Source: a virus
Taxonomy: Duplodnaviria; Heunggongvirae; Uroviricota; Caudoviricetes
DNA: 50,042 nucleotides
Direction: 5' to 3' (one strand)
Virus record (IMG/VR): IMGVR_UViG_640753025_000001
Location: 1 to 50,042 of that record
The position numbers were made by a program, and so were the translations under genes. The number at the start of each line of letters is the position of its first letter. Position 1 is the stretch's first letter. Below, piece by piece: positions 5,924 to 47,892 of the stretch. The notes under the pieces were generated by a model that was given only the letters and a program-made list of their open reading frames with translations, ran no database searches and was not told the DNA's origin.

Positions 5924-6325
5924 AGGCGATACCGTTATTTGATAAGAAGTGAAGGTTTCCCAACTTTGAGTTGAGCGCCGGGGATATTTATTCCTGCTTT
6001 TAGTTGGTGTTTGATTGCCAGTTTGTCGGCTTTAATTGTTGTTTCAAACTCAACGTATTCTGGAGGAAGGGCGCTTGAGTCGATGATTTCTACAGTTTCT
6101 GACGGTTTGCGGATTGTTACCTGGTGAATACCTGCTCGAATCTTTTTCTTTCCAACCATTTCAAGCGATGACGCTATATACGTCATAATGCTATCAATCT
6201 TATTTTGAATTACTGCTGCTCTTTCATTCAGTGACTTTGCCTCTTCCTTGAGGCGTTCAGCATAACCATGAATCGCCACGGGTTTAACAGACACCTCAGA
6301 GTCATTTAAGATGGCTTAAAGAGAG

Positions 6326-6610
6326 GTGCCCATGAGCGGTAAGCGTTATCCCGAAGAGTTTAAAACTGAAGCAGTCAAACAGGTTGTTGATCGCGGTTAT
6401 TCTGTTGCCAGCGTTGCAACACGTCTCGATATCACCACCCACAGCCTTTATGCCTGGATAAAGAAGTACGGTCCGGATTCTTCCACTAATAAAGAACAGT
6501 CAGATGCTCAGGCCGAGATCCGCCGTCTCCAGAAAGAGCTGAAACGGGTTACCGACGAACGGGACATATTAAAAAAAGCCGCGGCGTACTTCGCAAAGCT
6601 GTCCGACTGA
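6326..6610 (+). CDS. IS3-family transposase OrfA (HTH)
   Basis: 94-aa ORF; A-run (TTAAAAAAAGCC) near 3' end consistent with a -1 frameshift site. Confidence 0.9.
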   Translation: MPMSGKRYPEEFKTEAVKQVVDRGYSVASVATRLDITTHSLYAWIKKYGPDSSTNKEQSDAQAEIRRLQKELKRVTDERDILKKAAAYFAKLSD

Positions 6611-6666
6611 GGTACGCCTTTATCCGTGACAACTCCTGTTGCTGGCCTGTTCGCCTGCTCTGTCGG

Positions 6667-7479
6667 GTGCTGGATGTTCATCCCAGTGGTTTTTACGCCT
6701 GGCTTCAGCAGCCGCATTCACAACGCCATCAGGCAGACCTGAGACTGACAGGACAGATTAAACAGTTCTGGCTGGAATCGGGATGCGTCTATGGTTATCG
6801 CAAAATCCATCTGGATTTGCGTGACAGCGGGCAACAGTGCGGAGTAAACAGAGTCTGGAGACTGATGAAACGTGTCGGAATAAAGGCTCAGGTCGGATAC
6901 CGAAGCCCGCGGGCACGTAAAGGCGAGGCCAGTATCGTGTCACCCAACAGGCTCCAGCGACAGTTCAATCCGGATGCTCCTGATGAGCGTTGGGTAACGG
7001 ACATAACCTACATCAGGACCCACGAAGGCTGGCTGTATCTTGCCGTTGTTGTTGATCTGTTCTCACGCAAAATTATCGGCTGGTCCATGCAATCCCGGAT
7101 GACAAAGGACATTGTCCTGAACGCACTGCTGATGGCTGTATGGCGGCGTAATCCCGAAAAACAGGTGCTGGTTCATTCGGATCAGGGCAGTCAGTACACA
7201 AGCCATGAGTGGCAGTCGTTCCTGAAATCACACGGCCTGGAGGGTAGCATGAGCCGTCGCGGTAACTGCCATGATAATGCGGTTGCAGAAAGTTTTTTCC
7301 AGTTGTTGAAACGTGAACGGATAAAGAAAAAGATCTACGGAACGCGGGAAGAAGCCCGCAGTGATATTTTTGATTACATCGAAATGTTTTATAACAGTAA
7401 GCGTCGGCATGGTTCTAGCGAACAGATGTCACCGACAGAATATGAAAACCAGTATTATCAACGGCTCGGAAGTGTCTAG
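6667..7479 (+). CDS. IS3-family transposase OrfB (DDE catalytic domain)
   Basis: 270-aa ORF from first Met; expected expression as OrfAB fusion by frameshift. Confidence 0.9.
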   Translation: MLDVHPSGFYAWLQQPHSQRHQADLRLTGQIKQFWLESGCVYGYRKIHLDLRDSGQQCGVNRVWRLMKRVGIKAQVGYRSPRARKGEASIVSPNRLQRQFNPDAPDERWVTDITYIRTHEGWLYLAVVVDLFSRKIIGWSMQSRMTKDIVLNALLMAVWRRNPEKQVLVHSDQGSQYTSHEWQSFLKSHGLEGSMSRRGNCHDNAVAESFFQLLKRERIKKKIYGTREEARSDIFDYIEMFYNSKRRHGSSEQMSPTEYENQYYQRLGSV

Positions 7480-7632
7480 ATTATCCGTGGCGATTCACCA
7501 GACTCATTTTTAATAATGGCAAGAAGTTGCTCTATTTTATCGGTAAATTCTCCTTCCATGCCTTCTATTGTGTCAGCAATCATCTCTGGCTCTAAATCTG
7601 AATCCATCAATTTTGCGTATTCATTGGCAATT

Positions 7633-26371: not shown

Positions 26372-26389
26372 CCTATCGGAGCATTAAGC

Positions 26390-28315: not shown

Positions 28316-28324
28316 GGTGAATAA

Positions 28325-30696: not shown

Positions 30697-31151
30697 TGAT
30701 TCAGTTCAAACCAACGCGAAACATCGACCTGATAGAAGCCGTGGGAAATCACCCCGACATTATCACCGGGAGCAACAACGGTGATGGATACGACTACAAG
30801 CCTGAATGCCGTTACTTCGAGGTGAACGTGCACGGGCAGTTCGGCGGCATTGTTTACTATCAGGAGATTCAGCCGCTGACATTCGATTGCCACGCCATGT
30901 ACCTGCCAGAGGTTCGTGGATTCAGCAAGGAAATCGGGCTGGCGTTCTGGCGATACATTCTGACTAACACCACCGTTCAGTGCGTAACATCGTTCGCTGC
31001 ACGCAAATTCCGCCACGGTCAGATGTACTGCGCAATGATTGGCCTTAAGCGTGTAGGAACAATCAAGAAATACTTCAAAGGCGTGGATGACGTGACTTTT
31101 TACAGCGCCACACGCGAAGAACTAATCGACTTCCTGAATCACGGGAGATAG
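30696..31151 (+). CDS. gp14-like head/tail assembly protein
   Basis: 151-aa ORF in gp14 position. Confidence 0.6.
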   Translation: MIQFKPTRNIDLIEAVGNHPDIITGSNNGDGYDYKPECRYFEVNVHGQFGGIVYYQEIQPLTFDCHAMYLPEVRGFSKEIGLAFWRYILTNTTVQCVTSFAARKFRHGQMYCAMIGLKRVGTIKKYFKGVDDVTFYSATREELIDFLNHGR

Positions 31152-31153
31152 CC

Positions 31154-31846
31154 ATGTTATATGCATTTAAGCTGGGCAGAAAACTGCGCGGCGAGGAACC
31201 TTATTGCCCTGAAAAAGGCGGGAAAGGTGGCAGTTCTGATAAAAGCGCAAAGTATGCAGCAGAAGCTCAGAAGTATGCCGCAGACCTGCAAAATCAGCAG
31301 TTCAACACCATCATGAACAACCTGAAGCCGTTTACTCCTCTGGCTGATAAGTATGTCGGCAGCCTCGAGAACTTATCGTCTCTGGAAGGGCAAGGTCAGG
31401 CACTTAACCAGTATTACAACTCTCAGCAGTATAAAGACCTTGCAGGTCAGGCTCGCTATCAGAGTCTGGCGGCAGCGGAAGCAACAGGTGGATTGGGTTC
31501 CACCGCAACCAGTAATCAGTTAGCAGCAATCGCACCAACGCTTGGTCAGCAATGGCTATCTGGACAAATGAACAATTACAACAACCTGGCAAATATCGGT
31601 CTTGGCGCTCTTCAGGGGCAGGCAAACGCCGGGCAAACATATGCCAACAACATGAGTCAGATTTCACAGCAAAGCGCGGCGCTGGCTGCGGCAAACGCCA
31701 ACCGACCGTCAGCATTGCAGCAGGGTGTTAGTGGTGCTGCATCCGGTGCGCTTTTGGGTGGTGGCATAGCCAGTGCTCTCGAGCTATCAACTCCGTGGGG
31801 TGCTGGTATTGGTGCTGGTCTTGGTCTGCTTGGTTCACTGTTTTAA
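31154..31846 (+). CDS. ejection protein (P22 gp7-like)
   Basis: 230 aa, Gly/Ala-rich C-terminus. Confidence 0.75.
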   Translation: MLYAFKLGRKLRGEEPYCPEKGGKGGSSDKSAKYAAEAQKYAADLQNQQFNTIMNNLKPFTPLADKYVGSLENLSSLEGQGQALNQYYNSQQYKDLAGQARYQSLAAAEATGGLGSTATSNQLAAIAPTLGQQWLSGQMNNYNNLANIGLGALQGQANAGQTYANNMSQISQQSAALAAANANRPSALQQGVSGAASGALLGGGIASALELSTPWGAGIGAGLGLLGSLF

Positions 31847-31856
31847 GGGGTAATCA

Positions 31857-33242
31857 ATGGCTACGTGGCAACAGGGTATTAATTCTGGTGGGTTTCTTGC
31901 TGGCATCGGTGCGCAAAATGAGAATGCGCCAAAGGCAAGCGACATTAACGCAACGCTTGGTCTGATCCGCGAAAACAATGAACTGGCTCGCTCAGGTGCA
32001 AATAACGTTGGTCTGACCGCGTTACGTGGTCTGGCTGGAGTTGCTGATATTTACAAGCAGGAACAGCAACAGAAAGCGATTAATGCGTTCAATAAGGTTC
32101 ATGCTGATGCATGGGCTTCTGGTGATCCATCGGGACTATTTAAGTTTGCCCAGGAAAATCCAGCGTTTGTTGCACAGGCACAACAGGCGTTTTCTGGTCT
32201 TAATGATCAGCAACGCAACGATATGGGCGATTTAGCCATGAGGGCTAACGTCGCTCTTTCTCAGGGACCGGAAGCCTACAGTAAATTCATTACTGACAAC
32301 AAGGACAGGTTAAATCGCGTTGGTGCTAATGCTGACTGGATGATTCAGACAGGTATCCAGAATCCAGAGCAGCTATCACACATGCTGACTACTATGTCTC
32401 TCGGTGCGCTTGGACCAGAAAAGGCGTTTGCTGTTCAGGATAAGATGGCTGGTCGTGAAATTGACCGAGGCAGGCTGGCAGAGACAATCCGCAGCAATCA
32501 GGCTGGCGAGGCACTTCAGGCGAGAGGGCAAAACCTTTCCTATCAGTCAGCAATGACTGGACACGGACTTGCAGCAGAAAGACTGGCACTTGATAAGCAG
32601 AAATTCGGTTTTGAAGTACAACAGGCACAAAAGAAGGCCGATGAACTTATTAATGCTGCGCCAAAACTATCCGTGAACATGGAAAAGGCTATAGAAAAAT
32701 CAGCAGGTGATGCGGCAGCTAGTCGTAATGCTGCCGATTCAATGACAACGCTTGCTGACACGCTTGAGAAGGAGAAGCCAACTCCTGGTTTGTTCGGTAA
32801 CGCTGAAAATATGTTCACTAAGCTTACGGGGCAAGATAACTACCTCCGAGATATGCGGATTAGATTCAACCAACTAGCCAATGCGCAGGCAACCAAGCTT
32901 CTCCCCCCCGGCCCTGCATCAGATAAGGATATTGAGTTTGCAAGGAAAGGCATTCCAAGCGAAACGGATAATCCAATGGTCATGGCTCGATGGTTAAGGG
33001 GTATGGCAAAAATGGAAAGTAATAACGCGAAGTTCAACGAGTTTAGGTCAGAGTGGATGAGTGCAAATGGCAGCCCAGGACAATCTGATCGCAACCGAAA
33101 CATCATGGGGATGGATGTTAAGAAGGGTGAATCATTGAACTCTGCGGCAAAACGTTTTCTTTCCTCAAGTTATGGCGATAGCCAACCTCAACAGCAATTG
33201 TCCGATGACGAATTAATTAGCAAATATCTCGGAGGGCAGTAA
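31857..33242 (+). CDS. ejection protein (P22 gp20-like)
   Basis: 461-aa ORF in gp20 position. Confidence 0.75.
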
Positions 33243-35068
33243 TGGCCTATAGTCGTGAACAGTTGATGACGGCGTTAAGGAATGCTGATGCTGCCGGCGA
33301 TACTGAGGGGGCACGTCGCATTGCTCAGATGCTGTCTTCTGGTGATCAATCCACTCAAAACCAATCGCAGCCAGAAGAACAATCTCTGGTGGGAAAAGCT
33401 ACTGACTGGCTCACTGGTGGTCAAAGTGCAGGGCAAATTGCAGAACAGGCTGGCCGTGGTCTGGTAAACATACCATTTGACGTATTGCAGGGTGGCGCAA
33501 GTCTGATTAATGCAATCAGCCAGGGTCTTGGTGGCCCCAAGGTTTTGGATGATGTTTATCGTCCAGTAGATCGACCAACAGACCCTTATGCGCAAGCTGG
33601 AGAAACAATTGGCGGGTATTTAGTTCCAGGAGTTGGAACGGCAGGAAGCATGGCTATTGGATCACTGGCAGAGGCCGCAAATCAGAAAGGCGATTTCGCA
33701 CAAAATGCAGCCAAAAATGCCGGAGTTAACCTTGCCGCTCAGGGTGTTCTTTCCGCAGCAGCAAAGGGAATAGGGCGTGGAATAACGGCTATAAAAGGTG
33801 ATATTGCGCCAGAAGTGGCGAAGAAAATTGCCACATCAGAATCGATGGGCGTGACACCAATGACATCTGATGTTATCCCGCCGAAAAATGCTTTCACTCG
33901 TGGCCTTACTCAGGATGCCGAGGGGGCTTTGCTCGGGACAGGCTCAAAGAGAGCGGAGCAATATGCAACGCGTAGTAAACTGGTAAGCAATTATTTTGAC
34001 CGTTTTGGTGAGTACAACCCTGATGATGTGGTGAAATCTCTTACCACCACGTTAAGGGGGCGGAAGGATGCCGCTGGCGCTGTTATCAATGACGTCACCA
34101 ATAAAATGGGTAATGCCGCAGTTGATACCACAAATACCATGAATGCTCTGAATACAGCGATCGCAAGACAGGAACGGCTTGGGACGTCTGCCAATCAAAG
34201 CCTGCTTACATCCTTGCGTAACCTACGTGAAGAATTAGCAAACCCTGCAACTGATTTGGATGTTACGTTTGATCTCTTGCGTCAGCACAGAACAGCATTT
34301 AGATCTAATGTTCAGGGAGATGCTATGGTCTTCCCCAACCAGGCAAAAGCAGCTACCAATATGGTAGAGAATGCAATGTCAAAAGACCTTCGTAACGCAG
34401 TTGCTAAAAACCTCGGTGCATCAGACGCAGCAAAATACCTTAAAGCAAATTCCGATTATGCAAACGTTTATAATAAGGTGCTTAATAAAAACATTGCCAA
34501 CAAGCTCAACAAGGCAAGCAGTGAAGCCAGTCCTGAACTTATAAATACCGTTGTATTAAGCAGAAAACCATCTGACGTGAAACGAATCTGGAGCGCACTG
34601 GATGATAAAGGGAAAGATGCTATGCGTGCAGCTTACGTCAGCAAAATAGCGGAAAAGGCCGGCGACTCTCCAGCCAAGTTCATCACTGAAGTTAATAAGC
34701 TGAAATCTCAGTCAGGAGGTGAAATTTACAACACTATTTTTTCTGGAAAGCACATGAAAGAACTTGATGCTCTTAATGAAGTTCTACAGCAAACAGCAAG
34801 GTCAGACACCGCAAATGTAGTAACTCAGACGGGGCAATCGCAAGCCAACAGGATAAGGACGATTGGCGCAACTGCGACTCTTGGCGTATCAATGGGGCTT
34901 GAGGCTGGTTTCGGTGCAATGATGCGCTTGTATGAGTCCAAAGCAGCAAGGAATGCGCTCTTACGTCTGGCAAACACTAAAGCTGGAACGCCAGCCTATG
35001 AAAGAGCGCTGAATAACGCCGCAAATGCCATCAGACCAATACTTGCCAATGATGCAACTGATCGCTAA
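33242..35068 (+). CDS. ejection protein (P22 gp16-like)
   Basis: 608-aa ORF in gp16 position. Confidence 0.8.
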
Positions 35069-35089
35069 GGGTTGATGTCATGGATGTTG

Positions 35090-35728
35090 TTAATTGCGAA
35101 TGGAATCGCGGAACTCTTTGCTTGATAGAAAAGGATCTGTTCTCCTTAACTCATCATAGTTTTTATTAAACTTTCTTGCTTCACCTGGGTATCTGTTGAA
35201 CAAAACATTGCAGAAAAAAGAGAGCAATAACTCACATATGAATGCTAATACCCTGAAAAATAAAGGTATAAAAAGAAGGGAAGGTTCATTGAAGTCTCTA
35301 TTCCAAACAAAATAGACAATCATCCCGACATACCAAATTGATATCCCTATACTGATGATTGTTCCAACAGAGGTAACTACGATCCCGATTAAGTCGGACA
35401 GTCTGTTTGCCAGTAACTCATTTGAGTATCTTGCAATCATATACCGCCAACATTTTGCAATATCATCCTGATCTGTAGAGTCTTCTGGAATAGCTAGGCT
35501 TCTACATATTGAAGTAGCTCTTTTTTTCTCAACTCTTTTTGAGATCCATCCATTAAAGAGATACATCAACACCTGCGTTGCTATTCCTGCACCAAGTGAT
35601 ATCAAAGACATCCCCAAAAATCTCCATCCTGGAGATAGTGACTGGTACTGCCAAACAAAAAAAATTAAAAAACCCAATGAGCCTATGACATAGGCTGATG
35701 TATCGCTATATATATCTATTTTTTTCAT
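35090..35728 (-). CDS. membrane protein in sieA position (putative superinfection exclusion)
   Basis: ATG at 35728 (MKKIDIYSD) after AAGGAG; about four hydrophobic segments; AT-rich gene between gp16 and the immI-like region. Confidence 0.55.
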   Translation of the reverse strand: MKKIDIYSDTSAYVIGSLGFLIFFVWQYQSLSPGWRFLGMSLISLGAGIATQVLMYLFNGWISKRVEKKRATSICRSLAIPEDSTDQDDIAKCWRYMIARYSNELLANRLSDLIGIVVTSVGTIISIGISIWYVGMIVYFVWNRDFNEPSLLFIPLFFRVLAFICELLLSFFCNVLFNRYPGEARKFNKNYDELRRTDPFLSSKEFRDSIRN

Positions 35729-35792
35729 TGAGTAGCCACTCCTTAGTTTTGAGCAGAACACCGGATGATAATGTGTCGCTTCCTAAAGGATA

Positions 35793-36434
35793 TCAAAGCA
35801 ACGGGATTTCAAGGTAAACTGCGGTTGCCAAAATACTAACATCTTCATTTCTAACAAGAATATTAGGATACATTGGGTTTAGGGATACTAAGTTTGTCTC
35901 TATTTCACCAATGTAAACCTGCTTGAAGCTCAATATTTGCTCTTTATCCAATGATGCTATTACATAATCTTTGCTTTTAGCTTTTACTAGAGGGCTGAAC
36001 GTGACAACTGATCCTCTGGGAAAGCTAATACCTGAACTTGTAGTCATAGCTTCACCTTCAATAGTCAATGCAAATGCAGAGTCACCAACATTGTATATTG
36101 CCGGATGAAATCTAGACGATGAATGTTCACCTGTGTTTAGGTAATGCATAACTTCATCTAGTTTGAGGATTGGTATTTGCTTTACCAGAACGTCAGGCAT
36201 GACGTTTTTTGTTCCAGGCCCCTGACCTTCACCCAGAGCTAACCACTCAGCCGTAGTGCCTAATGCGTTGGCTAATGCCTGCAATACACGAAGCCGTGGT
36301 TTAGCCTCACCACCCTCGTATGCAGCTATTTGACGTTGAACAACACCAGCTAATTTTGACAACTGCGCCTGCGTCATACCCCTGGACTGTCTTGCCAGAG
36401 ATACTCTTGATGGGAATTGATCGTCAAAATTCAT
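35793..36434 (-). CDS. second CI-like repressor (HTH + S24-like domain, Ser to Ala at nucleophile)
   Basis: 213 aa; HTH GMTQAQLSKLAGV; C-terminal domain aligns to CI/C2 but has GEAM (Ala129, codon 36048..36050) where CI/C2 have GNSM/GDSM. Confidence 0.8.
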   Translation of the reverse strand: MNFDDQFPSRVSLARQSRGMTQAQLSKLAGVVQRQIAAYEGGEAKPRLRVLQALANALGTTAEWLALGEGQGPGTKNVMPDVLVKQIPILKLDEVMHYLNTGEHSSSRFHPAIYNVGDSAFALTIEGEAMTTSSGISFPRGSVVTFSPLVKAKSKDYVIASLDKEQILSFKQVYIGEIETNLVSLNPMYPNILVRNEDVSILATAVYLEIPLL

Positions 36435-36455
36435 TAGTTCACCATAAAAAATTCA

Positions 36456-36484
36456 TTGACTCATACTGAGTGTGAGTGAATAAT
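36456..36484 (+). promoter_or_regulatory. Pant-like promoter for arc-ant operon
   Basis: TTGACT - 17 bp - AATAAT; spacer holds tandem TGAGTGTGAGTG. Confidence 0.5.
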
Positions 36485-36532
36485 CAAACTACAAAAAGTG
36501 AGATTATGAGTTTTTCAAAAACAGGAGTGCAT

Positions 36533-36706
36533 AATGACTGAAAAGATATCTTCCATCAAGCCGCGTCAGGTTCGTTTTACAGAAAAGGTTGATTCACATA
36601 TCCGCGAATCAGCAAAAAGATGCCATAGGTCAATTCAGGCAGAGATAGCTTATCGAATGGAGTTATTGATGAAACTTGAGGCAAAGGGCGATGTTGTCAT
36701 CCAATA
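36533..36706 (+). CDS. arc: Arc-like ribbon-helix-helix repressor
   Basis: 57 aa; RQVRFTEKVDSHIRESAKRCHRSIQAEIAYRM fits Arc/Mnt pattern; below ORF-track cutoff. Confidence 0.65.
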
Positions 36707-36780
36707 AAAATAGTGAAGCCCGGCAGTGCGCGAACACAAACCGGGCCTCTATGTCAGTAACCGTATGCAAGGAAACTAAC

Positions 36781-37407
36781 ATGAATATTGTAGCAAAATC
36801 AGATTACAACTTCCACGGAGTTGAGTTGGTGCCCACCCGTGATATGCATGGTGTTTGGTTTACATCATCTAATATTGCATCTGCACTTAAATATGCAAAT
36901 AGCCGTGCAGTAACAATGATTTATAACAAGTATAGCGATGAGTTTAGCGCCGGAATGACTCAGGTACTCGAAGTGAGTACCTCAGGAAATTATCGCAAAA
37001 AAGTGCGAGTTTTCTCACTACGCGGTGCCCACCTAATCGCGATGTTTGCTCGCACTCCGGTAGCCAAAGAGTTCCGCCGCTGGGTGCTGGATATTTTGGA
37101 TCGGCAGGCAGAATGCTCACCGATTGCAAAACAGTTTACTGACGAAGAACTGGTTAATCTCTGCTACTTACAATTGTGGATGGAGAAGAGTCAACAAATG
37201 TGCAAACACATCTACCCAGGAATGAAGCAAATTGGTTCTGAGCTTTCAGGAAGAATTTACGATATTGCATATGAGACTCGCTATATGTCAGAAGAAACCA
37301 AGAAATCACTTCTTCGTGAAATGAAGAATCTTGATACCAACAATTTTGTCGTAAAGAACGCTCAGCCAATGCTGACAAAACTGCGCGGCGAGGAATGGAT
37401 TCATTGA
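36781..37407 (+). CDS. ant: antirepressor (Bro-N domain)
   Basis: ATG at 36781 after AAGGAA; N-terminal domain (HGVELVPTRDMHGVWFTS...) resembles phage antirepressor N-domain. Confidence 0.7.
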   Translation: MNIVAKSDYNFHGVELVPTRDMHGVWFTSSNIASALKYANSRAVTMIYNKYSDEFSAGMTQVLEVSTSGNYRKKVRVFSLRGAHLIAMFARTPVAKEFRRWVLDILDRQAECSPIAKQFTDEELVNLCYLQLWMEKSQQMCKHIYPGMKQIGSELSGRIYDIAYETRYMSEETKKSLLREMKNLDTNNFVVKNAQPMLTKLRGEEWIH

Positions 37408-38143
37408 TTGGTGCGCCGGACGGCGCAAAAAGAAAACCGCCAGTGTGCTGCTGGCGGCCTATGTCACACCCTTACTACCACATAAGGAATGCCTAATGAC
37501 TTTGAAGAATGTAGCAAACATCGGATCCGTTGTCACGGATAAAACCATTGACAGCCAAAGTCTTCTGATGATGGTTAATGAAGCTCGCAAGTTATGTGGA
37601 GAGCCATCAGTACGTAACAACAAATTCATCGAGAAAATTGAGGATGAATTGGAGGGCGAGACCTACACAAAAAGTGTAGGTCGGAAAAACGGGGCTGACA
37701 TTGATGTTATCTCCATGACTATCAAGCAGGCGCTTCGTGTTGCTGCTCGCGAATCTAAAGCAGTTCGCCGAACACTTGTAGACAAACTTGAAAGTATGCA
37801 AGAAGCGCACATTAAAAGCGGTAAATCGTCGAGTGGACTTGTTGAGTATCGCCAGGCTCGAACATTGAAAATGACGGTTGAAGCTGTTACCAATCTGTTA
37901 GATTTGATGCCAAATCTTGCGCCGGAAGCAAAGCAGACTGCGGCAGCAAGCATAATCAACCCGATAGTTGGTTTTAATGCAATACCTCTTCCAGCAATAG
38001 AAGAGCATTACTACTCAGCAGGGGAGGTTGCAGAGCAGCTTGGAGTAACGGCAAACAAGATTGGTCGCATTGCTAACGCAAACAACTGAATCGCCACGGG
38101 TTTAACAGACACCTCAGAGTCATTTAAGATGGCTTAAAGAGAG

Positions 38144-38428
38144 GTGCCCATGAGCGGTAAGCGTTATCCCGAAGAGTTTAAAACTGAAGCAGTCAAACAG
38201 GTTGTTGATCGCGGTTATTCTGTTGCCAGCGTTGCAACACGTCTCGATATCACCACCCACAGCCTTTATGCCTGGATAAAGAAGTACGGTCCGGATTCTT
38301 CCACTAATAAAGAACAGTCAGATGCTCAGGCCGAGATCCGCCGTCTCCAGAAAGAGCTGAAACGGGTTACCGACGAACGGGACATATTAAAAAAAGCCGC
38401 GGCGTACTTCGCAAAGCTGTCCGACTGA
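38144..38428 (+). CDS. IS3-family transposase OrfA
   Basis: Identical protein to 6326..6610. Confidence 0.9.
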   Translation: MPMSGKRYPEEFKTEAVKQVVDRGYSVASVATRLDITTHSLYAWIKKYGPDSSTNKEQSDAQAEIRRLQKELKRVTDERDILKKAAAYFAKLSD

Positions 38429-38484
38429 GGTACGCCTTTATCCGTGACAACTCCTGTTGCTGGCCTGTTCGCCTGCTCTGTCGG

Positions 38485-39297
38485 GTGCTGGATGTTCATC
38501 CCAGTGGTTTTTACGCCTGGCTTCAGCAGCCGCATTCACAACGCCATCAGGCAGACCTGAGACTGACAGGACAGATTAAACAGTTCTGGCTGGAATCGGG
38601 ATGCGTCTATGGTTATCGCAAAATCCATCTGGATTTGCGTGACAGCGGGCAACAGTGCGGAGTAAACAGAGTCTGGAGACTGATGAAACGTGTCGGAATA
38701 AAGGCTCAGGTCGGATACCGAAGCCCGCGGGCACGTAAAGGCGAGGCCAGTATCGTGTCACCCAACAGGCTCCAGCGACAGTTCAATCCGGATGCTCCTG
38801 ATGAGCGTTGGGTAACGGACATAACCTACATCAGGACCCACGAAGGCTGGCTGTATCTTGCCGTTGTTGTTGATCTGTTCTCACGCAAAATTATCGGCTG
38901 GTCCATGCAATCCCGGATGACAAAGGACATTGTCCTGAACGCACTGCTGATGGCTGTATGGCGGCGTAATCCCGAAAAACAGGTGCTGGTTCATTCGGAT
39001 CAGGGCAGTCAGTACACAAGCCATGAGTGGCAGTCGTTCCTGAAATCACACGGCCTGGAGGGTAGCATGAGCCGTCGCGGTAACTGCCATGATAATGCGG
39101 TTGCAGAAAGTTTTTTCCAGTTGTTGAAACGTGAACGGATAAAGAAAAAGATCTACGGAACGCGGGAAGAAGCCCGCAGTGATATTTTTGATTACATCGA
39201 AATGTTTTATAACAGTAAGCGTCGGCATGGTTCTAGCGAACAGATGTCACCGACAGAATATGAAAACCAGTATTATCAACGGCTCGGAAGTGTCTAG
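38485..39297 (+). CDS. IS3-family transposase OrfB
   Basis: Identical protein to 6667..7479. Confidence 0.9.
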   Translation: MLDVHPSGFYAWLQQPHSQRHQADLRLTGQIKQFWLESGCVYGYRKIHLDLRDSGQQCGVNRVWRLMKRVGIKAQVGYRSPRARKGEASIVSPNRLQRQFNPDAPDERWVTDITYIRTHEGWLYLAVVVDLFSRKIIGWSMQSRMTKDIVLNALLMAVWRRNPEKQVLVHSDQGSQYTSHEWQSFLKSHGLEGSMSRRGNCHDNAVAESFFQLLKRERIKKKIYGTREEARSDIFDYIEMFYNSKRRHGSSEQMSPTEYENQYYQRLGSV

Positions 39298-39471
39298 ATT
39301 ATCCGTGGCGATTCAAACCTCAAAACTGAGCAGTACGGGAAGTTCTTCCTGGATAAATCGGCGCATTCCAGCAAACAGGTAGAGGCGTTCCGTTACAATT
39401 CTGAAGGCGTTAAAGCACTACAACACCTGCTACATGGCTCAAATGTGGCGTAACATTTTATAATGAAAACT

Positions 39472-39497
39472 AAACCCGCTTAATCGCGGGTTTTTTC
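39472..39497 (+). terminator. rho-independent terminator ending the arc-ant operon
   Basis: Hairpin AAACCCGC-TTAATC-GCGGGTTT followed by TTTTC. Confidence 0.65.
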
Positions 39498-39767
39498 TTT
39501 CCTTAGAATTTCAGCCGCAACTTCTTTTACTCGTTCCGAGATTAATGAGGCCAGCCTCTCTTCTTCATCACGATACCCGCTTACAGGTGATGGTTTGGAG
39601 AGTGATTCTTCCATCGTAGCCACAATTTCAGAATTGATAGACCTGTTATTCATTTTTGCACGCTGCTTAATCTTAGCGTGCAACTCGTGTGTAAGCCTCA
39701 AGTGGAACTGCGCCTCATCGTATTTGCTGTACATCATCAATGCCTCACCAAATGGGTGGAATGGCAT
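39480..39767 (-). CDS. mnt: Mnt-like ribbon-helix-helix repressor
   Basis: 95-aa ORF; LRLTHELHAKIKQRAKMNNRSINSEIVATMEESLSKPSPVSGYRDEEERLA matches the P22 Mnt pattern as recalled; true start may be an internal Met. Confidence 0.65.
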   Translation of the reverse strand: MPFHPFGEALMMYSKYDEAQFHLRLTHELHAKIKQRAKMNNRSINSEIVATMEESLSKPSPVSGYRDEEERLASLISERVKEVAAEILRKEKTRD

Positions 39768-39867
39768 CGTAACCTACTGGATAAATCAACAATCGTACCA
39801 TTTCGGTATGTAACTATAGCTTACCGCAGCTCTGCTGTGGGGACTAATTGCGCCAGGAGCACATCAA

Positions 39868-41778
39868 ATGACTGACACCAATTACCTGATCTCTATGCCG
39901 TCTACACCTTTTTCGGCGCCACGAGCATTTAAATCAGTGGCGAACGGGAAAATCTATATCGGAAACCCTGACACTGACCCGGTAAATCCTGCTAACCAAA
40001 TTCCGGTATATGCCGTTAATGAGAATGGATCCGAGGTTCAGGTTTCTCAGCCAATCATCATTAACGCTGGAGGCTTCCCTGTTTATAACGGGCAGATTAT
40101 GAAGTTCATCACCAAACAGAACTTCAGCATGGCGGTGTATGATGCATATGGGGCGCAGCAGTTTTACTGGATTAATGTTGCAAATATGGACCCAAACTCT
40201 GCGTATCTGGAAGCGGTTAATGATGTTCTTGCAATGCTGGGCTCAAGCGATGGCGCAAAACTGATAGGTGGAATGAGCTTTCTTACAGCGGAAATGTACT
40301 CTCATCTTGTTGAAGGGATGGACTGGAGGAAAGCAATTCAAGCTGCTATAGACCAAGCTCACCAGAACTATTTAGCCGGAAGCGGCCCAACCAATATTCT
40401 CATTGGAGGTGAATTCTCCGTTACTCTCAATCCTAATTCAACTTTGATACCTGGTGAGGTTGCTGCGGGTCGAGGTGCGCTGTGTATGCGTAGTGGTGTA
40501 ACACTGATGGGCGGCGGAGCAATCACGCTTGATGGCAATTTTACTGGCTCAGCCAGCGGCGCAATCATTACAAACTGGGAAGGCGCCGCCGATAACTGCA
40601 AGATTCAGGGGATCACGCTTAACGGCAGCCGTGGCACCGCTGCCGGAACGGGGATTACCTGCATTAATATCTTGGACTCGGATAATGTCACTATTGATAA
40701 CGTTAAGGCGATAGATAGCACTTCTGGAGGGATTTATTTACGCCGAGCTAACAATACGGTTTATGGCTGTTCTAACTCAAGAATTATGAACTGCTACGTT
40801 CACAACGTTGAATATATTGGCATTCAGTGTGAACGCCCCAACGGGATGACCATTACGGGATGTGCCGTAGCCTCCTGCGGTGATAATGGCATTGATATCT
40901 TTGGTAACGTAACTGACGAATCTGGACAGGGAGTTGCGGAGGATGTTGTTGTTAGTAATAACACTATCCGTGATGTAAGCGTAGGAGTGTTCATCGAATC
41001 ATGCGGAAACGTGGCAATATCTTCGTGCCGTATTTCAGGATTTAGTAACTCTGGTGTTTTCTTTAACCGGATAAATACAGCTGCGTATAATTGTTCTGTA
41101 ATTGGATGCACGATAACAGGGGCGGATATTACCTCCAGCCAGGGCATCCGCTGGAAGAATGCAGTTGGTTACACTCGCGTTTATAACAACACACTAAAAA
41201 ACTGTATTGACTCCTTTGTGACAACTGGAGGGATGATTTACGTTGATATTGGGGTGAATAACCATGAAAGCATTGGCAGGTGTTTTCTTTACGTTCCCAA
41301 AAAATCTAACGGATGTGTCTATACAAGAATGGTTCAGCAGGTCTACAACGGAGTTCAGACAGATGGCATACCGTACAACACGACACCTCGTGGTTGGCCA
41401 TCCGCAAACAACACTAGGTACTATCGCTGTTCATTCACCGCGCCGTACATGATGTATTCCGCTACGACTGGGGAAGATAACCTCATTCGGGCTACAGGCA
41501 ATTTGCCATTCAACAGTGGCTGGGGGCCTGCTTACTCGCTATACAATACGATTGTTTCTGGAGAAACAGTAATAGCCATGGGGAGCTCGCTACTGTCTGC
41601 CGGTGAATACATGCTAATAAACGGTTATTATTATTTAGTTTATAGCGTCACATCATCCTATGCTGTAGTAAGGAAATGGGATGTATCCAGTCAGGACTAT
41701 ATTGCCGGAGACTACACATCTTATTTAAATAGCGCATACGCATATTCCATCTTCAGAGCTGCTTGGGGAACACTATGA
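39868..41778 (+). CDS. tailspike protein (P22-type head-binding domain + divergent receptor-binding domain)
   Basis: 636 aa; N-terminal ~110 aa (FKSVANGKIYIGNPDTDPVNPANQIPVY) collinear with P22 gp9; remainder Gly/Asn/Ser/Thr-rich with repeated short strands. Confidence 0.88.
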   Translation: MTDTNYLISMPSTPFSAPRAFKSVANGKIYIGNPDTDPVNPANQIPVYAVNENGSEVQVSQPIIINAGGFPVYNGQIMKFITKQNFSMAVYDAYGAQQFYWINVANMDPNSAYLEAVNDVLAMLGSSDGAKLIGGMSFLTAEMYSHLVEGMDWRKAIQAAIDQAHQNYLAGSGPTNILIGGEFSVTLNPNSTLIPGEVAAGRGALCMRSGVTLMGGGAITLDGNFTGSASGAIITNWEGAADNCKIQGITLNGSRGTAAGTGITCINILDSDNVTIDNVKAIDSTSGGIYLRRANNTVYGCSNSRIMNCYVHNVEYIGIQCERPNGMTITGCAVASCGDNGIDIFGNVTDESGQGVAEDVVVSNNTIRDVSVGVFIESCGNVAISSCRISGFSNSGVFFNRINTAAYNCSVIGCTITGADITSSQGIRWKNAVGYTRVYNNTLKNCIDSFVTTGGMIYVDIGVNNHESIGRCFLYVPKKSNGCVYTRMVQQVYNGVQTDGIPYNTTPRGWPSANNTRYYRCSFTAPYMMYSATTGEDNLIRATGNLPFNSGWGPAYSLYNTIVSGETVIAMGSSLLSAGEYMLINGYYYLVYSVTSSYAVVRKWDVSSQDYIAGDYTSYLNSAYAYSIFRAAWGTL

Positions 41779-42833: not shown

Positions 42834-43064
42834 TTACTGTGTCTTTTCGTCCAGCCAGTCCGCCCACCACTGCATCATTTCTCTGCGTTTATCGAGATAC
42901 TGAGCATGGTTGTATATTCCACGCACAGATCCGCCGTTGGCATGAGCGAGTTGCACTTCGATAGTTTCGTGATGCACCAAGTGATCAAAGTAATGAAATT
43001 TAACATCCAAGCCTCCATCGATCGATACTTGCGGTAGTTGATAAGGAAAAACTATGGTACACAA
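42834..43064 (-). pseudogene. C-terminal fragment of a P4-type tyrosine integrase
   Basis: EVQLAHANGGSVRGIYNHAQYLDKRREMMQWWADWLD aligns with the C-terminus of the intact integrase at 43465..44673; no N-terminal/catalytic part. Confidence 0.6.
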
Positions 43065-43255: not shown

Positions 43256-43304
43256 ATTCGTAATGCGAAGGTCGTAGGTTCGACTCCTATTATCGGCACC
43301 ATTT
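43256..43304. repeat. attR core: 49-bp direct repeat (displaced 3' part of thrW)
   Basis: Exact copy of 1399..1447. Confidence 0.8.
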
Positions 43305-43464
43305 CAAACTCTTCCCAAGTCTACCGAAATCAACTAAAAGCTCGTATACTGCGGTTTCTGGCCCGTATCTTATCTCCTGTTATCAACTAGACTCAACCGA
43401 AATCAAGTCGCAGTTGGGGGCATAAGTGGGGGCATTTTGTGTTCGGTCTAGGGAGATGCCCCCA

Positions 43465-44673
43465 ATGAAACTTAATGCGCGACAGGTAGACGCAGCTAAA
43501 CCCAGAGAGAAAGCCTATAAGCTGGCAGATGGTGCTGGTTTGTATCTTGAGGTTGTTCCCTCTGGTTCCAGATACTGGCGGATGAAATATCGCTTCAATG
43601 GAAAAGAGAAGCGTATGGCCTTTGGTGTCTATCCGGCAGTGTCCCTTGCACAAGCGAGGGCACTGCGTGACGACGCCAAGAAAAAGCTTGCCGAAGGTAT
43701 CGATCCATCGCTTGCCAAGAAAGAAGAAAAGCTGGTTCGAGATGTGCAGCTAAATAATACGTTTCAGGCTGTGGCACTTGAATGGCATGGAACGAAGGTG
43801 AGCCGATGGTCAGAAGGTTATGCCTCGGACATTATCGAAGCCTTTAATAAAGATATTTTTCCCTATATTGGCCAACAACCGGTGAATGAAATCAAACCGC
43901 TGGTTCTGCTTAATGTGCTGCGTCGAATTGAAAGCCGTGGCGCGACAGAGAAGGCCAAGAAGGTTCGCCAGCGTTGCAGCGAAGTCTTTCGTTACGCCAT
44001 CGTAACCGGTCGTGCGGAATACAATCCTGCAGCGGATCTTACCAGCGCGATGTCAGGGCATGAATCGAAGCATTATCCCTTCCTTACTGTTGAGGAGTTA
44101 CCAGACTTTTTTAAAGCTCTCGCAGGCTACACAGGAAGCCCGTTAGTTGTTCTTGCGGCACGTCTGCTGATCCTCACGGGAGTTCGCACTGGCGAACTCC
44201 GAGGTGCTTTCTGGAGTGAGTTTGATCTTGAAAAAGCGGTGTGGGAGATACCTGCCGAGCGTATGAAGATGAAACGGCCTCACCTTGTCCCCCTCTCTAC
44301 CCAAGCGCTGGAAATCGTACAGCAACTCAAAGTGATGTCAGGGCAATATCCACTGGTGTTCCCGGGACGTAATGATCCCCGCAAGACGATGAGTGAAGCG
44401 AGTATTAATCAGGTTTTTAAGCGGATTGGATATACGGGGAGGGTAACGGGGCATGGTTTCCGTCACACGATGAGTACGATTTTGCATGAGGAAGGTTTCA
44501 ATACAGCGTGGATTGAAACCCAGCTGGCTCACGTTGATAAAAATGCGATTCGTGGGACGTATAACCATGCGTTGTATTTGGAAGGACGTAGGGAGATGAT
44601 GCAGTGGTATGCGGACTATATAAACGCTAATCATAATTCATGTATTTCTTTGCTGGTGAACGCTACAAAGTAG
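43465..44673 (+). CDS. int: tyrosine integrase, P4 type
   Basis: ATG at 43465 after GGGAGA; catalytic HGFRHT and RGTYNHALY regions; begins 160 bp after the tRNA 3' repeat, reading away from it. Confidence 0.9.
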   Translation: MKLNARQVDAAKPREKAYKLADGAGLYLEVVPSGSRYWRMKYRFNGKEKRMAFGVYPAVSLAQARALRDDAKKKLAEGIDPSLAKKEEKLVRDVQLNNTFQAVALEWHGTKVSRWSEGYASDIIEAFNKDIFPYIGQQPVNEIKPLVLLNVLRRIESRGATEKAKKVRQRCSEVFRYAIVTGRAEYNPAADLTSAMSGHESKHYPFLTVEELPDFFKALAGYTGSPLVVLAARLLILTGVRTGELRGAFWSEFDLEKAVWEIPAERMKMKRPHLVPLSTQALEIVQQLKVMSGQYPLVFPGRNDPRKTMSEASINQVFKRIGYTGRVTGHGFRHTMSTILHEEGFNTAWIETQLAHVDKNAIRGTYNHALYLEGRREMMQWYADYINANHNSCISLLVNATK

Positions 44674-44914
44674 ATTTGACGTGATGATAGGATTGATTAG
44701 GAAAATGACCTAAAACCGTATATTTTGATACTTAAGTTTAAACATTAGCCCTATATCCGATCGCCCTTTGTTACCTACACTTCTATCTTTTTTAGGTTCT
44801 AGGGCTGAAAGATTTGAAGATAAGTTTATAAATATCAATAGATTACATGATTGTGTTGGTTCTTGGGTAGCCGTAACGCCTAGGGCGGTAGCGTACTTAA
44901 GATGAGTATAAAAA

Positions 44915-46123
44915 ATGAACAGTAACTATATGCCATTCACACAACGAGATAGTCTCGGAAGATACTATACAAAAGAATCCATAAGTGCATTATTGGTTTC
45001 TCAGATGAAAGCTGAAAAAGTCAATAATATTATTGATTTAGCTTCTGGTGAGGGGAGCTTAACCTATGCTGCTTTAGACCGATGGAAGAATGCAGAAGCA
45101 TATTCTTTGGATATAGAATCTCGGATGTCAAAAAAAGTATGTGATAATCTTACTCATATTGTAACAGATGCCCTTGTTCATTCATTTCCTGAAATGCTTG
45201 CCCGACATCAAGGAAATTTTGATGTTGCAGTATGTAATCCTCCATTCACTCTCCCTGAATGGAGGGATGATTATTTTAAAATCATTAGTGAGATTGGCGC
45301 AGATAAATATATATCTGTCTCAAAATATGTCCCAGCAGAGATAATATTTATATCTCAAGTCATCAGGTTTCTTAAAAAGGGCGGTGAGGCTGGAATAATT
45401 TTACCTGATGGTATATTTACAGCAAGAAAGTTTATAGGTTTAAGACGATATTTATTGAATGAACATTCAATTACAAAAGTCATTGAATTGCCTAGGAATA
45501 TCTTCAAAAGGACAGAGGCTAAAACACATATTTTAATTTTTAATAAAAAAATTATGCCTCATCATAAAATACAATTACATTGTATAACTAAAGATGGGGA
45601 ATTGTCGCCTCCTGTTTTAATTAGAAAAGAAGATGCGGTTGAGAGAATGGACTACTCTTATCATTATAATAAAAATGAAGGTAAAGGGTTTAGCACAATA
45701 GGGATGCTTAAAAATATTTCAATTTTTAGAGGTAGGTTTAATTCAAAGGAAATTACGGAACATGTTTTTCATACGACAAAATTTAGTGGTGATGAAAAGT
45801 ACATTAAATTCCACTGCAACTCTGTAGAAGAATTGAAGCCATCAAAATTAGATGTCATTGCTAAGCCTGGTGATATATTAATAGCAAGAGTTGGGCGAAA
45901 TTTTCATAAAAAAATATTGTTTGTTGAGAGCGGCTATTCTTATATCAGTGACTGTATTTTTCTGATACGAGCCTCTGGTGGAGATAAGAAAAAACTATTT
46001 GATTTTCTTTGTTCTCAAGATGGGCAAGAGGAATTATCTCGAGCGAGTAGTGGTGTAGCCGCACAACATATTACAATGGATGCATTAAAAAAAATACATC
46101 TTGTAAGGATTAAACATGACTGA
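44915..46123 (+). CDS. N6-adenine DNA methyltransferase, gamma class
   Basis: 402 aa; GRYYTKESI (motif X-like), IIDLASGEGSLT (AdoMet motif I), CNPPF (motif IV, 45236..45247); ~160-aa C-terminal putative recognition domain; AT-rich. Confidence 0.8.
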   Translation: MNSNYMPFTQRDSLGRYYTKESISALLVSQMKAEKVNNIIDLASGEGSLTYAALDRWKNAEAYSLDIESRMSKKVCDNLTHIVTDALVHSFPEMLARHQGNFDVAVCNPPFTLPEWRDDYFKIISEIGADKYISVSKYVPAEIIFISQVIRFLKKGGEAGIILPDGIFTARKFIGLRRYLLNEHSITKVIELPRNIFKRTEAKTHILIFNKKIMPHHKIQLHCITKDGELSPPVLIRKEDAVERMDYSYHYNKNEGKGFSTIGMLKNISIFRGRFNSKEITEHVFHTTKFSGDEKYIKFHCNSVEELKPSKLDVIAKPGDILIARVGRNFHKKILFVESGYSYISDCIFLIRASGGDKKKLFDFLCSQDGQEELSRASSGVAAQHITMDALKKIHLVRIKHD

Positions 46124-47822
46124 TGTGGAATTAGATAGTAATTTTCTTATCGAGGAACGAGCTGATTATATTGATGAGGATACGATAAAAAATAATACTA
46201 TCAGATCTGGAGAGTTTTTCGATATTATACATAATGCTCTTATATCCCCAGGCATCAAACTTATAGTTGGTCCTAGGGGATGTGGTAAAACACATTTGAT
46301 GCGTTATGCTTGGGTTGAATGTAAAAACGATGATAACGCACCATTACCACTCTATGTTTCTTTTAATAAATATTTTAAGTTAGAGCCGCTTTTAAAAAAT
46401 AAACCAAATGCAATTGATCTCTTTCATAAATGGGTATTAGCAAAGATACTACTCTCTGCTTATGAAATTGCTTGCGATATTGAAGATTCTGAATATCTTG
46501 ATTTGTCAACGATACTCATAGCGGATAAAGAGTTCCTAATTAATTTAATCGTAAGGCTTGAGCAGGGTCTTTCGCCATCATTAGAACAAGAAAACATTGT
46601 TCAATTGATCAGTGTTTCTTCTGTCATATCCTCGTTGAGTTCACTATGTGATTGGCTTGAACGTAAAAGAGTCATTATTTTATTAGACGATGCAGCAATA
46701 AGCTTAACTCCTGAATATCTTTACGAGTTTTTTGATATTGTACGTAGTCTAAAAACCTCAAAAATAGCTTTAAAGGCATCGGTTTATCCTGGAACAACCG
46801 AATATGGCCCAAGGTTTCATGTTGCTCATGATGCTGAAACAATTGATGCTTGGATTTCGGTACAGCACCCTAATTATTCCTCAGTGATGGATGCTATAGC
46901 GCAGGCAAGGTTTCCTGGGTATGATGGCATTCCGGATGACTTGAAAGAGTTATTTAAATTCTCAGCATTTGGTATTCCACGTTCTTTTTTGATGATGTTA
47001 AGAGATTATCAAACAACTTTAAGTCAGACAACTCAGCAAAAATTTAATAAAATAATTGAAAGGTATGTTGAGCTTAGACTCAGCGAATACAGTTCACTAA
47101 AAGATAAGCTACCTCGATTGTTTGACATTGTTTCATTAGGTGAATCACTTTTATTAAAAGTAGTCGAATTACTCAAGGAAAGTAACTCCCAATATAAAGA
47201 AGAGAAACAAGTCATAATCGGTATAGAGAAAAATGATAATGTTTATTTTTCTCGACTCACTAAGCTATTAATTGAAACAGGGCTTTTTTATAATCTTCCT
47301 GATATTTCTCATGGTGATGGGCGTACTTATGAAAGATATATACCTCATTATGCTTTATTAATAAAGGAAAGAGTGTTTAACGAAGGAAGTAGAGGTTTTT
47401 CTCCTTCTCAGATTATTCAAAAAATACTAAGAAAGAATGCTAAGCATCCTGTCAGAAGAAACATTTCATCATTATTCAATGCTGAGCAACTTGCGAGACT
47501 TAAACTAACTTTACCTCCATGCAATAACTGCAAGACTCCGCGATTGACTGACAATCAAAAATTTTGCCATCATTGTGGGAATCAATTGATTGATGAGTCG
47601 GCCTATAATCAGTGCATGTCTATTCCACTGTCAAAAGTACCACATCTAACATCTTGGCAAATGCAAAAACTATCTGGGCTGGAAAAAGTAAAAACTATAG
47701 GAGATGTATTGTCTTTACAAGACCCTGGGAGTGAGTTAAGAAAAATTCACAGAATAGGACCCAAAATTGCCAATAAAATTATGGACAAAGTGTTATTACA
47801 TGTTGAAGAGTTTTTGTCTTAA
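46116..47822 (+). CDS. P-loop ATPase with C-terminal zinc ribbon and helix-hairpin-helix
   Basis: 568 aa; Walker A GPRGCGKTH (46269..46295), Walker B-like VIILLDDA, CNNCKTP...CHHCGNQL (from ~47519), HhH IHRIGPKIANKI; start overlaps MTase stop. Confidence 0.7.
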   Translation: MTDVELDSNFLIEERADYIDEDTIKNNTIRSGEFFDIIHNALISPGIKLIVGPRGCGKTHLMRYAWVECKNDDNAPLPLYVSFNKYFKLEPLLKNKPNAIDLFHKWVLAKILLSAYEIACDIEDSEYLDLSTILIADKEFLINLIVRLEQGLSPSLEQENIVQLISVSSVISSLSSLCDWLERKRVIILLDDAAISLTPEYLYEFFDIVRSLKTSKIALKASVYPGTTEYGPRFHVAHDAETIDAWISVQHPNYSSVMDAIAQARFPGYDGIPDDLKELFKFSAFGIPRSFLMMLRDYQTTLSQTTQQKFNKIIERYVELRLSEYSSLKDKLPRLFDIVSLGESLLLKVVELLKESNSQYKEEKQVIIGIEKNDNVYFSRLTKLLIETGLFYNLPDISHGDGRTYERYIPHYALLIKERVFNEGSRGFSPSQIIQKILRKNAKHPVRRNISSLFNAEQLARLKLTLPPCNNCKTPRLTDNQKFCHHCGNQLIDESAYNQCMSIPLSKVPHLTSWQMQKLSGLEKVKTIGDVLSLQDPGSELRKIHRIGPKIANKIMDKVLLHVEEFLS

Positions 47823-47892
47823 TTTTGATGGCATGTACTTGTCAATCGTGTCTTTCTTATCTGAAAAGTTTAATTTAAAAAGAGTCGGGAAA

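What the first reader, a model, noticed from the sequence alone, without database searches (positions are those of the whole stretch)
37496..39453. IS copy 2 truncates the C-terminal domain of an antirepressor-like gene; the IS supplies the stop codon
The TGA ending the ORF at 38087..38089 is the first three bases of the IS. After removing the IS and one AAC the frame continues 44 codons (LKTEQYGKFFLDKSAHSSKQVEAFRYNSEGVKALQHLLHGSNVA) to a TAA just before a strong terminator. Loss of antirepressor function could stabilise lysogeny or make the prophage non-inducible by this route.
Basis: seen in the sequence. Interest (0 to 1): 0.45.

Follow-up and report, generated by a model that had tools for sequence, protein, structure and literature searches.

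The report
Insertion sequence truncates prophage accessory gene
A jumping gene (an IS3-family insertion sequence) has landed inside a non-essential regulator-like gene of a P22-like prophage in the commensal E. coli strain HS and cut off its conserved DNA-binding tail; this is an ordinary, already annotated gene disruption, and the prophage is still inducible.

Summary
A 1,229-bp IS3-family element (ISEhe3-like, 38087-39315) sits between two copies of AAC. Its first three bases, TGA, end the ORF that starts at 37496 after codon 197. Removing the IS and one AAC restores a 241-codon ORF that ends at TAA 39451-39453, just before a terminator.

The window is the E. coli HS chromosome, and the prophage is the P22-like HS-1/phiHS4. 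The restored protein is 97.5% identical to an intact gene at the same position in the P22-like phage JEP4. It matches PHROG 1726 ('anti-repressor') end to end. Four other genomes carry the empty site. Among 5,426 complete E. coli genomes, only the two HS assemblies carry the gene/IS junction.

The lost 44 residues form the wing and last helix of a predicted MerR-type winged-helix domain, the most conserved part of the family.

'Antirepressor' is only an annotation label. There is no Pfam hit and no experiment, and the P22-Ant-type gene just upstream is intact. RefSeq already marks the gene as a pseudogene. A 2008 paper whose ant-region figure includes the HS prophage marks an IS3 transposon in that figure. 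A 2026 preprint shows phiHS4 is mitomycin-inducible and makes virions, so the predicted non-inducibility is not supported. Low interest.

The parts
37496..38086 (+). 5' part (codons 1-197) of the disrupted 241-codon accessory gene ('orfX', PHROG 1726). It has a KilA-N/Rha-like N-domain, a helical middle region and the first two helices of the C-terminal winged HTH.
   Evidence: PGAP annotates 37496-38086 as a pseudogene 'missing C-terminus'.
38084..38086 (.). Left copy of the 3-bp target-site duplication, AAC (also codon 197, Asn).
   Evidence: Empty sites elsewhere carry a single AAC.
38087..39315 (+). IS3-family insertion sequence, 1,229 bp, ISEhe3-like, copy 2. It lies in the same orientation as orfX, and its first triplet, TGA (38087-38089), is the stop codon of the truncated ORF.
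   Evidence: 100% identical to the copy at 6269-7497. 88.8% identical to the element annotated ISEhe3 in Shigella phage SfIV. NCBIfam transpos_IS3 scores 338.6 bits against a cutoff of 160.
38087..38099 (.). Left terminal inverted repeat, TGAATCGCCACGG. It is 13 bp perfect, with weaker similarity extending to about 40 bp.
38150..39297 (+). Transposase OrfAB. OrfA is 38150-38428 (HTH_Tnp_1). The OrfB frame runs to 39297 (HTH_21, rve, rve_2). The -1 frameshift run A7G lies at 38389-38396.
   Evidence: PGAP notes 'programmed frameshift'.
39303..39315 (.). Right terminal inverted repeat, CCGTGGCGATTCA.
39316..39318 (.). Right copy of the target-site duplication, AAC.
39319..39453 (+). Orphaned 3' remnant of orfX: codons 198-241 plus TAA. 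It encodes the beta-hairpin wing and last helix of the winged HTH. It is undecayed, and its residues are identical to those of the intact allele of E. coli strain 1506.
39472..39493 (.). Bidirectional terminator-like hairpin shared by orfX and the convergent Arc/Mnt-family gene (39480-39767, minus strand).
36781..37407 (+). Context: intact Ant-type gene (Bro-N + P22_AR_C) immediately upstream in the same operon.
6269..7497 (+). Context: identical IS copy 1, target duplication CCA. It splits a 'siphovirus Gp157 family' gene in the early-left operon.

Best explanation
An ISEhe3-like IS3-family insertion sequence transposed into codon 198 of a 241-codon accessory gene. About 12 places in the E. 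coli HS chromosome match this IS, and two identical copies lie in this prophage. The target gene sits in the 'ant moron' (immI-like region, between the ejection-protein genes and the tailspike gene) of the P22-like prophage HS-1/phiHS4, integrated at thrW.

Shown: the insertion duplicated AAC, and the IS end (TGA) closes the frame directly after Asn197. The gene therefore encodes 197 aa with no IS-derived residues. The last 44 codons and the native terminator are stranded 1.2 kb downstream.

Inferred: the lost segment is the beta-hairpin wing plus the final helix of a MerR/excisionase-type winged-HTH domain. It holds six of the ten invariant or nearly invariant residues of the family, so the C-terminal (probably DNA-binding) domain can no longer fold and the gene is a loss-of-function pseudogene.

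The event is recent and strain-specific. The IS copies are identical, the remnant is undecayed, and the junction is found only in HS assemblies. The gene is non-essential for induction and virion production. Whether its product is a true antirepressor is unknown.
Against: No experiment shows that the 197-aa product is inactive. The N-terminal module (residues 1-110) occurs with other C-termini and in some short proteins of 60-160 aa, so it might act alone. The structural model is of moderate confidence (pTM 0.37). The fold-search outputs do not state which query residues align. Foldseek E-values are not significant.
Confidence: 0.88

Rival explanations
1. OrfX is a working antirepressor, and its truncation stabilises lysogeny or removes an induction route for the prophage.
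For: PHROG 1726 is labelled 'anti-repressor'. The gene lies in the same operon as an Ant-type gene in an immI-like region. Its C-module is found fused to Bro-N, Rha, KilA-N, ORF6N, AntA and P22_AR_N domains, which are typical of proteins annotated as antirepressors.
Against: No experimental evidence for antirepression exists for this family, and there is no Pfam or NCBIfam match. The Ant-type gene upstream is intact. The C2-like repressor has the GDSM...K dyad for RecA-stimulated cleavage. [quoted passage not shown] The repressor facing the ant operon has Ala in place of the S24 nucleophile Ser, so an SOS-triggered ant route is not predicted.
Confidence: 0.1
2. The insertion is functionally neutral. 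The truncated 197-aa protein keeps the relevant activity in its N-terminal domain and helical region, and the C-terminal HTH is dispensable.
For: The N-terminal module recombines independently with other C-termini and is seen in short proteins. The truncated ORF keeps its start, its ribosome-binding site and its place in the operon.
Against: The C-terminal 70 residues are the most conserved part of the family. All four close alleles read out in other genomes keep the full C-terminus. Only the two HS assemblies carry the gene/IS junction. Short N-only proteins may be contig-end fragments.
Confidence: 0.15
3. The insertion was selected because OrfX is harmful to the lysogen (a KilA-like host-killing or lysis-promoting function), so that inactivating it benefits the host.
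Against: Intact copies are carried by 81 complete E. coli genomes in apparently normal prophages. This IS has about 12 copies in HS and also hit an unrelated early gene in the same prophage, which is consistent with random insertion during an IS expansion. The KilA name is an annotation only.
Confidence: 0.05

Closest known systems
IS3-family insertion sequences, specifically ISEhe3 (the copy annotated in Shigella phage SfIV)
   Same: Length of 1,229 bp, TG...CA ends, orfA/orfB with an A7G -1 frameshift site, an rve DDE transposase and a 3-bp target duplication. Like the SfIV copy, it sits inside a prophage/phage genome.
   Different: Only 88.8% nucleotide identity to the SfIV copy, so it is a relative or isoform rather than the same element. 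It was not compared with the ISfinder reference sequence.
P22 immI region / 'ant moron' of P22-like phages (mnt, arc, sar, ant); Villafane et al. 2008, PMC2629481
   Same: Same genomic position, between the gene-16 homologue and the tailspike. It has a small RHH gene followed by an Ant-type gene, plus an Arc/Mnt-family gene. The 2008 figure of ant morons includes the HS prophage and marks an IS3 transposon.
   Different: OrfX has no counterpart in P22. The regulator divergent from the operon is a CI-like HTH + S24-like protein rather than Mnt, and the Mnt-like gene lies downstream and convergent.
Modular phage 'antirepressor/KilA/Bro/Rha' regulators (domain shuffling described by Iyer et al. 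2002; from memory, not read here)
   Same: Two-module build: an N-terminal KilA-N/Rha-like domain and a C-terminal HTH module. The same C-module is found behind Bro-N, Rha, KilA-N, ORF6N, AntA and P22_AR_N domains.
   Different: Neither module reaches any Pfam model. The C-module looks like a MerR/excisionase-type winged HTH in fold searches, and it gets no hit to the Pfam ANT/KilAC model.
Intact orthologue JEP4_17 ('KilA protein') of Escherichia phage JEP4
   Same: 97.5% identical over all 241 residues, with the same neighbours.
   Different: JEP4 has no IS and carries an extra 73-codon ORF before mnt.

Membership tests
IS3 family insertion sequence | DDE (rve) transposase made as an OrfAB fusion by -1 programmed frameshift, with an HTH-containing OrfA | tested here: met
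   HTH_Tnp_1 in OrfA (E 1.7e-19). HTH_21, rve (1.4e-33) and rve_2 in OrfB. NCBIfam transpos_IS3 scores 338.6 bits against a cutoff of 160. The A7G run lies at 38389-38396, with OrfB in the -1 frame. PGAP notes 'programmed frameshift'.
IS3 family insertion sequence | Terminal inverted repeats ending 5'-TG...CA-3' and a short (3-5 bp) target-site duplication | tested here: met
   13-bp perfect inverted repeats, TGAATCGCCACGG...CCGTGGCGATTCA. Target duplications are AAC (copy 2) and CCA (copy 1). A single AAC is present in empty sites.
ISEhe3 (same element by the ISfinder convention of about 95% nucleotide identity or more; convention recalled from memory) | Near-identity to the reference ISEhe3 sequence | tested here: inconclusive
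   Same length, but only 88.8% identity to the copy annotated ISEhe3 in phage SfIV. The ISfinder reference is not available here.
P22 Ant-type antirepressor (P22_AR_N / P22_AR_C / AntA domains) | Match to the Pfam P22_AR or AntA models | tested here: not met
   No Pfam hit for the restored 241-aa protein at E<=0.1, nor for its halves at E<=10. The upstream gene does match P22_AR_C (2.8e-14) and Bro-N.
P22 Ant-type antirepressor | Binds and inactivates the prophage repressor | not testable with these tools
   Needs binding or reporter assays. No paper on this family was found.
KilAC/ANT C-terminal domain (PF03374) | Match to the Pfam ANT model | tested here: not met
   No hit in the protein or in 118 family members. 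Only weak HTH_17, HTH_31 and Rv2175c_wHTH hits were seen.
PHROG 1726 ('anti-repressor') | Full-length profile match | tested here: met
   E 2.4e-100, residues 1-241 against profile positions 1-264 of 264. The name is an annotation, not a tested function.
MerR/excisionase-type winged HTH fold (C-terminal domain) | Helix-turn-helix, beta-hairpin wing and following helix, with structural similarity to solved members | tested here: met
KilA-N/APSES fold (N-terminal domain) | Structural or profile similarity to KilA-N/APSES | tested here: inconclusive

The most novel reading that the evidence does not exclude
OrfX could be a genuine second effector of a non-canonical immI circuit: arc-like, ant and orfX under a CI-like repressor whose S24 domain has lost its nucleophile. 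Its IS knock-out would then contribute to a phenotype of phiHS4, for example altered lysogeny frequency or the observed failure of induced virions to form plaques. The evidence here does not exclude this, but nothing supports it beyond gene position and annotation.
Probability: 0.07. Interest if true: 0.4.

Novelty: already known. Interest (0 to 1): 0.1.

Why it matters
It matters little beyond careful annotation. This is a textbook case of a recent IS insertion pseudogenising a prophage accessory gene, in a strain (E. coli HS) now used as a gut-colonisation and phage model. People engineering or inducing phiHS4 should know three things. The prophage carries two IS copies. One gene of the ant region is broken. 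The intact allele, known from phage JEP4 and strain 1506, could be restored to test what this widespread but uncharacterised 'anti-repressor' family (PHROG 1726) actually does.

Tried and rejected
- Pfam, NCBIfam and PADLOC scans of the restored protein and of its halves gave nothing usable, apart from one weak HTH-only PADLOC hit (mad1, E 0.0036).
- A profile search of PDB sequences gave only a spurious hit to a designed HTH repeat.
- The Foldseek PDB search gave no significant full-length match.
- One phage record annotates a homologue as 'Roi'. tblastn of the restored protein against HK022 25000-40751, the part of HK022 where I recalled roi to lie, found nothing at E<=1e-3. A link to HK022 Roi was therefore dropped.
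Alignment with the C2-like repressor shows Ala in place of the nucleophile Ser (IEGEAM against VKGDSM). Self-cleavage is therefore not predicted, and the idea was rejected.
- Literature searches for experimental work on this family in Stx phages or P22-like phages found none.
- An operator search in 36400-36560 found only one weak 11-nt inverted repeat, which was not pursued.

Full report
**1. What is in the sequence**

The region 37200-39800 was read directly. An ORF starts at ATG 37496, with AAGGAA 6 nt upstream, and runs for 197 codons to AAC 38084-38086. The next triplet, TGA 38087-38089, is the first three bases of a 1,229-bp element that ends at 39315.

- The element has 13-bp perfect terminal inverted repeats (TGAATCGCCACGG / CCGTGGCGATTCA).
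- It is flanked by AAC on both sides.
- It is 100% identical over its whole length to a second copy at 6269-7497, which is flanked by CCA.

Deleting the element and one AAC gives a 241-codon ORF. They end at TAA 39451-39453, 18 nt before a terminator-like hairpin with a T-run at 39472-39493.

**2. The mobile element**

It encodes an OrfA with HTH_Tnp_1 and an OrfB with HTH_21, rve and rve_2. It scores 338.6 bits on NCBIfam 'IS3 family transposase', against a cutoff of 160. An A7G slippery run lies at 38389-38396, with OrfB in the -1 frame, and PGAP notes a programmed frameshift.

It has the same length as, and is 88.8% identical to, the element annotated ISEhe3 in Shigella phage SfIV. I therefore call it ISEhe3-like. 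Twelve places in the HS chromosome match a query that included 214 nt of its left end.

**3. Where the window comes from**

The gene/IS junction (37900-38300) is found at 100% identity in only two of 20,395 records. Both are E. coli strain HS. The window corresponds to NZ_CP185286.1 from 1023011 onward: proA, tRNA-Thr, then a P22-like prophage. The prophage is bounded by a 52-nt direct repeat at 1399-1450 and 43256-43307.

PGAP already annotates 37496-38086 as a pseudogene, 'incomplete; missing C-terminus', next to the IS3-family transposase.

Villafane et al. 2008 (PMC2629481) analysed this region of P22-like phages as the 'ant moron'. They included the HS prophage ('HS-1', CP000802), and their figure legend marks 'the presence of a IS3 transposon'. 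I could not see the figure itself. The feature is thus already recorded.

**4. Is the restored form the normal form?**

Yes. Several lines agree:

- The restored protein is 97.5% identical over all 241 residues to JEP4_17 of the P22-like phage JEP4. That gene lies in the same position: repressor, small ORF, ant-type gene, this gene, small ORF, mnt, tailspike.
- In E. coli complete genomes, 81 of 5,426 hold at least 80% of the intact gene.
- Three of those genomes were inspected (strains 1506, E7476, A28). All have a 726-bp ORF in the same operon context.
- JEP4 and these three strains carry the uninterrupted site GCAAACAAC|CTCAAAAC with a single AAC. Strain 1506 has a C-terminus identical to the HS remnant.
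- The 120 best protein clusters in the large database are 220-250 aa. Four of the shorter ones were examined. Three lack only N-terminal residues. One, P0040 (225 aa), ends early, about 16 residues short of the usual C-terminus.

The 3' remnant in HS has not decayed and the two IS copies are identical, so the insertion is recent and specific to HS.

**5. What the gene is**

The restored protein matches PHROG 1726 ('anti-repressor') end to end (E 2.4e-100). It matches no Pfam, NCBIfam or PDB sequence.

An exhaustive search of 1.84 billion cluster representatives shows that the protein is modular. Residues about 1-110 and about 105/140-241 each occur with other partners.

I aligned 117 relatives, chosen because they share the C-module (so their coverage of residues 198-236 is by construction). 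Their N-terminal parts carry Bro-N (29), Phage_pRha (25), KilA-N (13), ORF6N (10), AntA (9) and P22_AR_N (4). Nine give weak HTH_17 hits.

Residues 166-236 are the most conserved block. The mean frequency of the commonest residue there is about 0.6, against 0.30-0.36 for residues 1-165. Of the ten invariant or nearly invariant positions, six lie in the deleted 44 residues: K199, G204, K210, K216, F221 and Y223.

An AlphaFold2 model of the 98%-identical P0001 has pLDDT 72.9 overall and about 80 in the C-domain. It gives H175-182, H186-195, E204-210, E217-223 and H225-236, which is a helix-turn-helix, a beta-hairpin wing and a closing helix.

The IS cuts after residue 197, just past the second helix. 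It removes the wing and the last helix. My inference is that the C-terminal domain, probably DNA-binding, cannot fold. This step is inferred, not shown.

**6. The functional claim**

'Antirepressor' is a database label for this family. I found no experiment on it.

- The gene that carries the P22 antirepressor C-domain (Bro-N + P22_AR_C) is the intact neighbour at 36781-37407.
- The main C2-like repressor (11068-11718) has the GDSM...K catalytic pattern, so direct RecA-stimulated cleavage is expected.
[quoted passage not shown] Its deletion lowers the frequency of lysogeny rather than blocking induction (PMC11016777).
- A 2026 preprint (10.64898/2026.05.19.726188) is the most direct evidence. 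It names the HS P22-like prophage phiHS4 and shows that mitomycin C raises its copy number. Virion-protected phiHS4 DNA and P22-like particles are produced, and a cured strain is readily obtained. No plaques formed on any host tested.

So the prophage, with both IS insertions in place, is inducible. A subtle quantitative effect cannot be excluded.

**7. Alternatives considered**

- The truncated protein may keep an activity in its N-module.
- The insertion might have been selected against a harmful KilA-like function. That rests on an annotation only, and intact copies are common.
- An assembly artefact is excluded by two independent HS assemblies.
- I considered that the HTH + S24 repressor divergent from the operon (35793-36434) could make the ant operon SOS-inducible. 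Its nucleophile Ser is replaced by Ala, so I dropped the idea.
- One phage record labels a homologue 'Roi'. The part of HK022 where I recalled roi to lie gives no tblastn hit.

**8. Verdict**

This is an ordinary, recent, strain-specific IS pseudogenisation of a non-essential prophage accessory gene. RefSeq already flags the gene as a pseudogene, and the 2008 figure legend reports an IS3 transposon among the ant morons it shows. Interest is low. The only residual value is that the intact allele offers a handle for testing what PHROG 1726 proteins do.

Noticed in passing
window 6269-7497 (flanks 5935-6267 and 7482-7649, minus strand): The identical IS copy 1 splits a 'siphovirus Gp157 family' gene in the early-left operon, between recT and the xis/int end. 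It lies opposite to the leftward transcription and could be polar on downstream early-left genes. Nevertheless the prophage excises and replicates, according to the 2026 preprint.
   Followed up: partly
window 35793-36434 (minus strand): The regulator divergent from the arc-ant-orfX operon, in the position of P22 mnt, is a CI-like HTH_3 + Peptidase_S24 protein. Its nucleophile Ser is replaced by Ala (IEGEAM against VKGDSM in the C2-like repressor), while the Lys is kept. It is thus a predicted non-cleavable CI-like repressor in the immI-like region. The identical protein occurs in strain 1506, and JEP4 has a gene annotated 'repressor protein C2' in the same position.
   Followed up: partly
window 35793-36434, compared with loci L006 33-416 and L007 252-404: Near-identical arc-ant-orfX modules have different upstream regulators. 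HS, strain 1506 and JEP4 have the HTH+S24 type. Strains E7476 and A28 have an Arc/Mnt-family gene. This is mosaic swapping of the operon's repressor.
   Followed up: no
window 36534-36707 (+): The 57-codon first ORF of the operon is weakly ribbon-helix-helix (ParD_like E 8e-4, Arc E 0.011). PGAP calls the ORF at the same position in other strains 'Arc family'. Villafane et al. 2008 stated that HS-1 apparently lacks arc.
   Followed up: partly
window 37408-37495: The 88-nt spacer between ant and orfX holds two GC-rich hairpins. One reads as a terminator on the minus strand (37460-37434). This is reminiscent of the sar antisense arrangement in P22 or of a module boundary.
   Followed up: no
window 36456-36484: The best sigma-70-like match of the region (TTGACT, 17 nt, AATAAT; 10 of 12) lies upstream of the small RHH gene and is a candidate Pant. 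An 11-nt imperfect inverted repeat at 36480-36507 overlaps its -10 element.
   Followed up: no
window 42834-42968 and 43465-48870: An integrase remnant lies just inside attR. Beyond the duplicated tRNA-Thr 3' end comes a second tyrosine integrase followed by an HsdM-family methyltransferase, a zinc-ribbon protein and a hypothetical protein. This may be a second island stacked at thrW.
   Followed up: no
window 39480-39767 (minus strand): The Arc/Mnt-family gene lies convergent with orfX and divergent from the tailspike gene. Its 3' end overlaps the bidirectional terminator (39472-39493). PHROGs labels its family 'partition protein ATPase', which looks like a mis-annotation of an RHH protein.
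   Followed up: no
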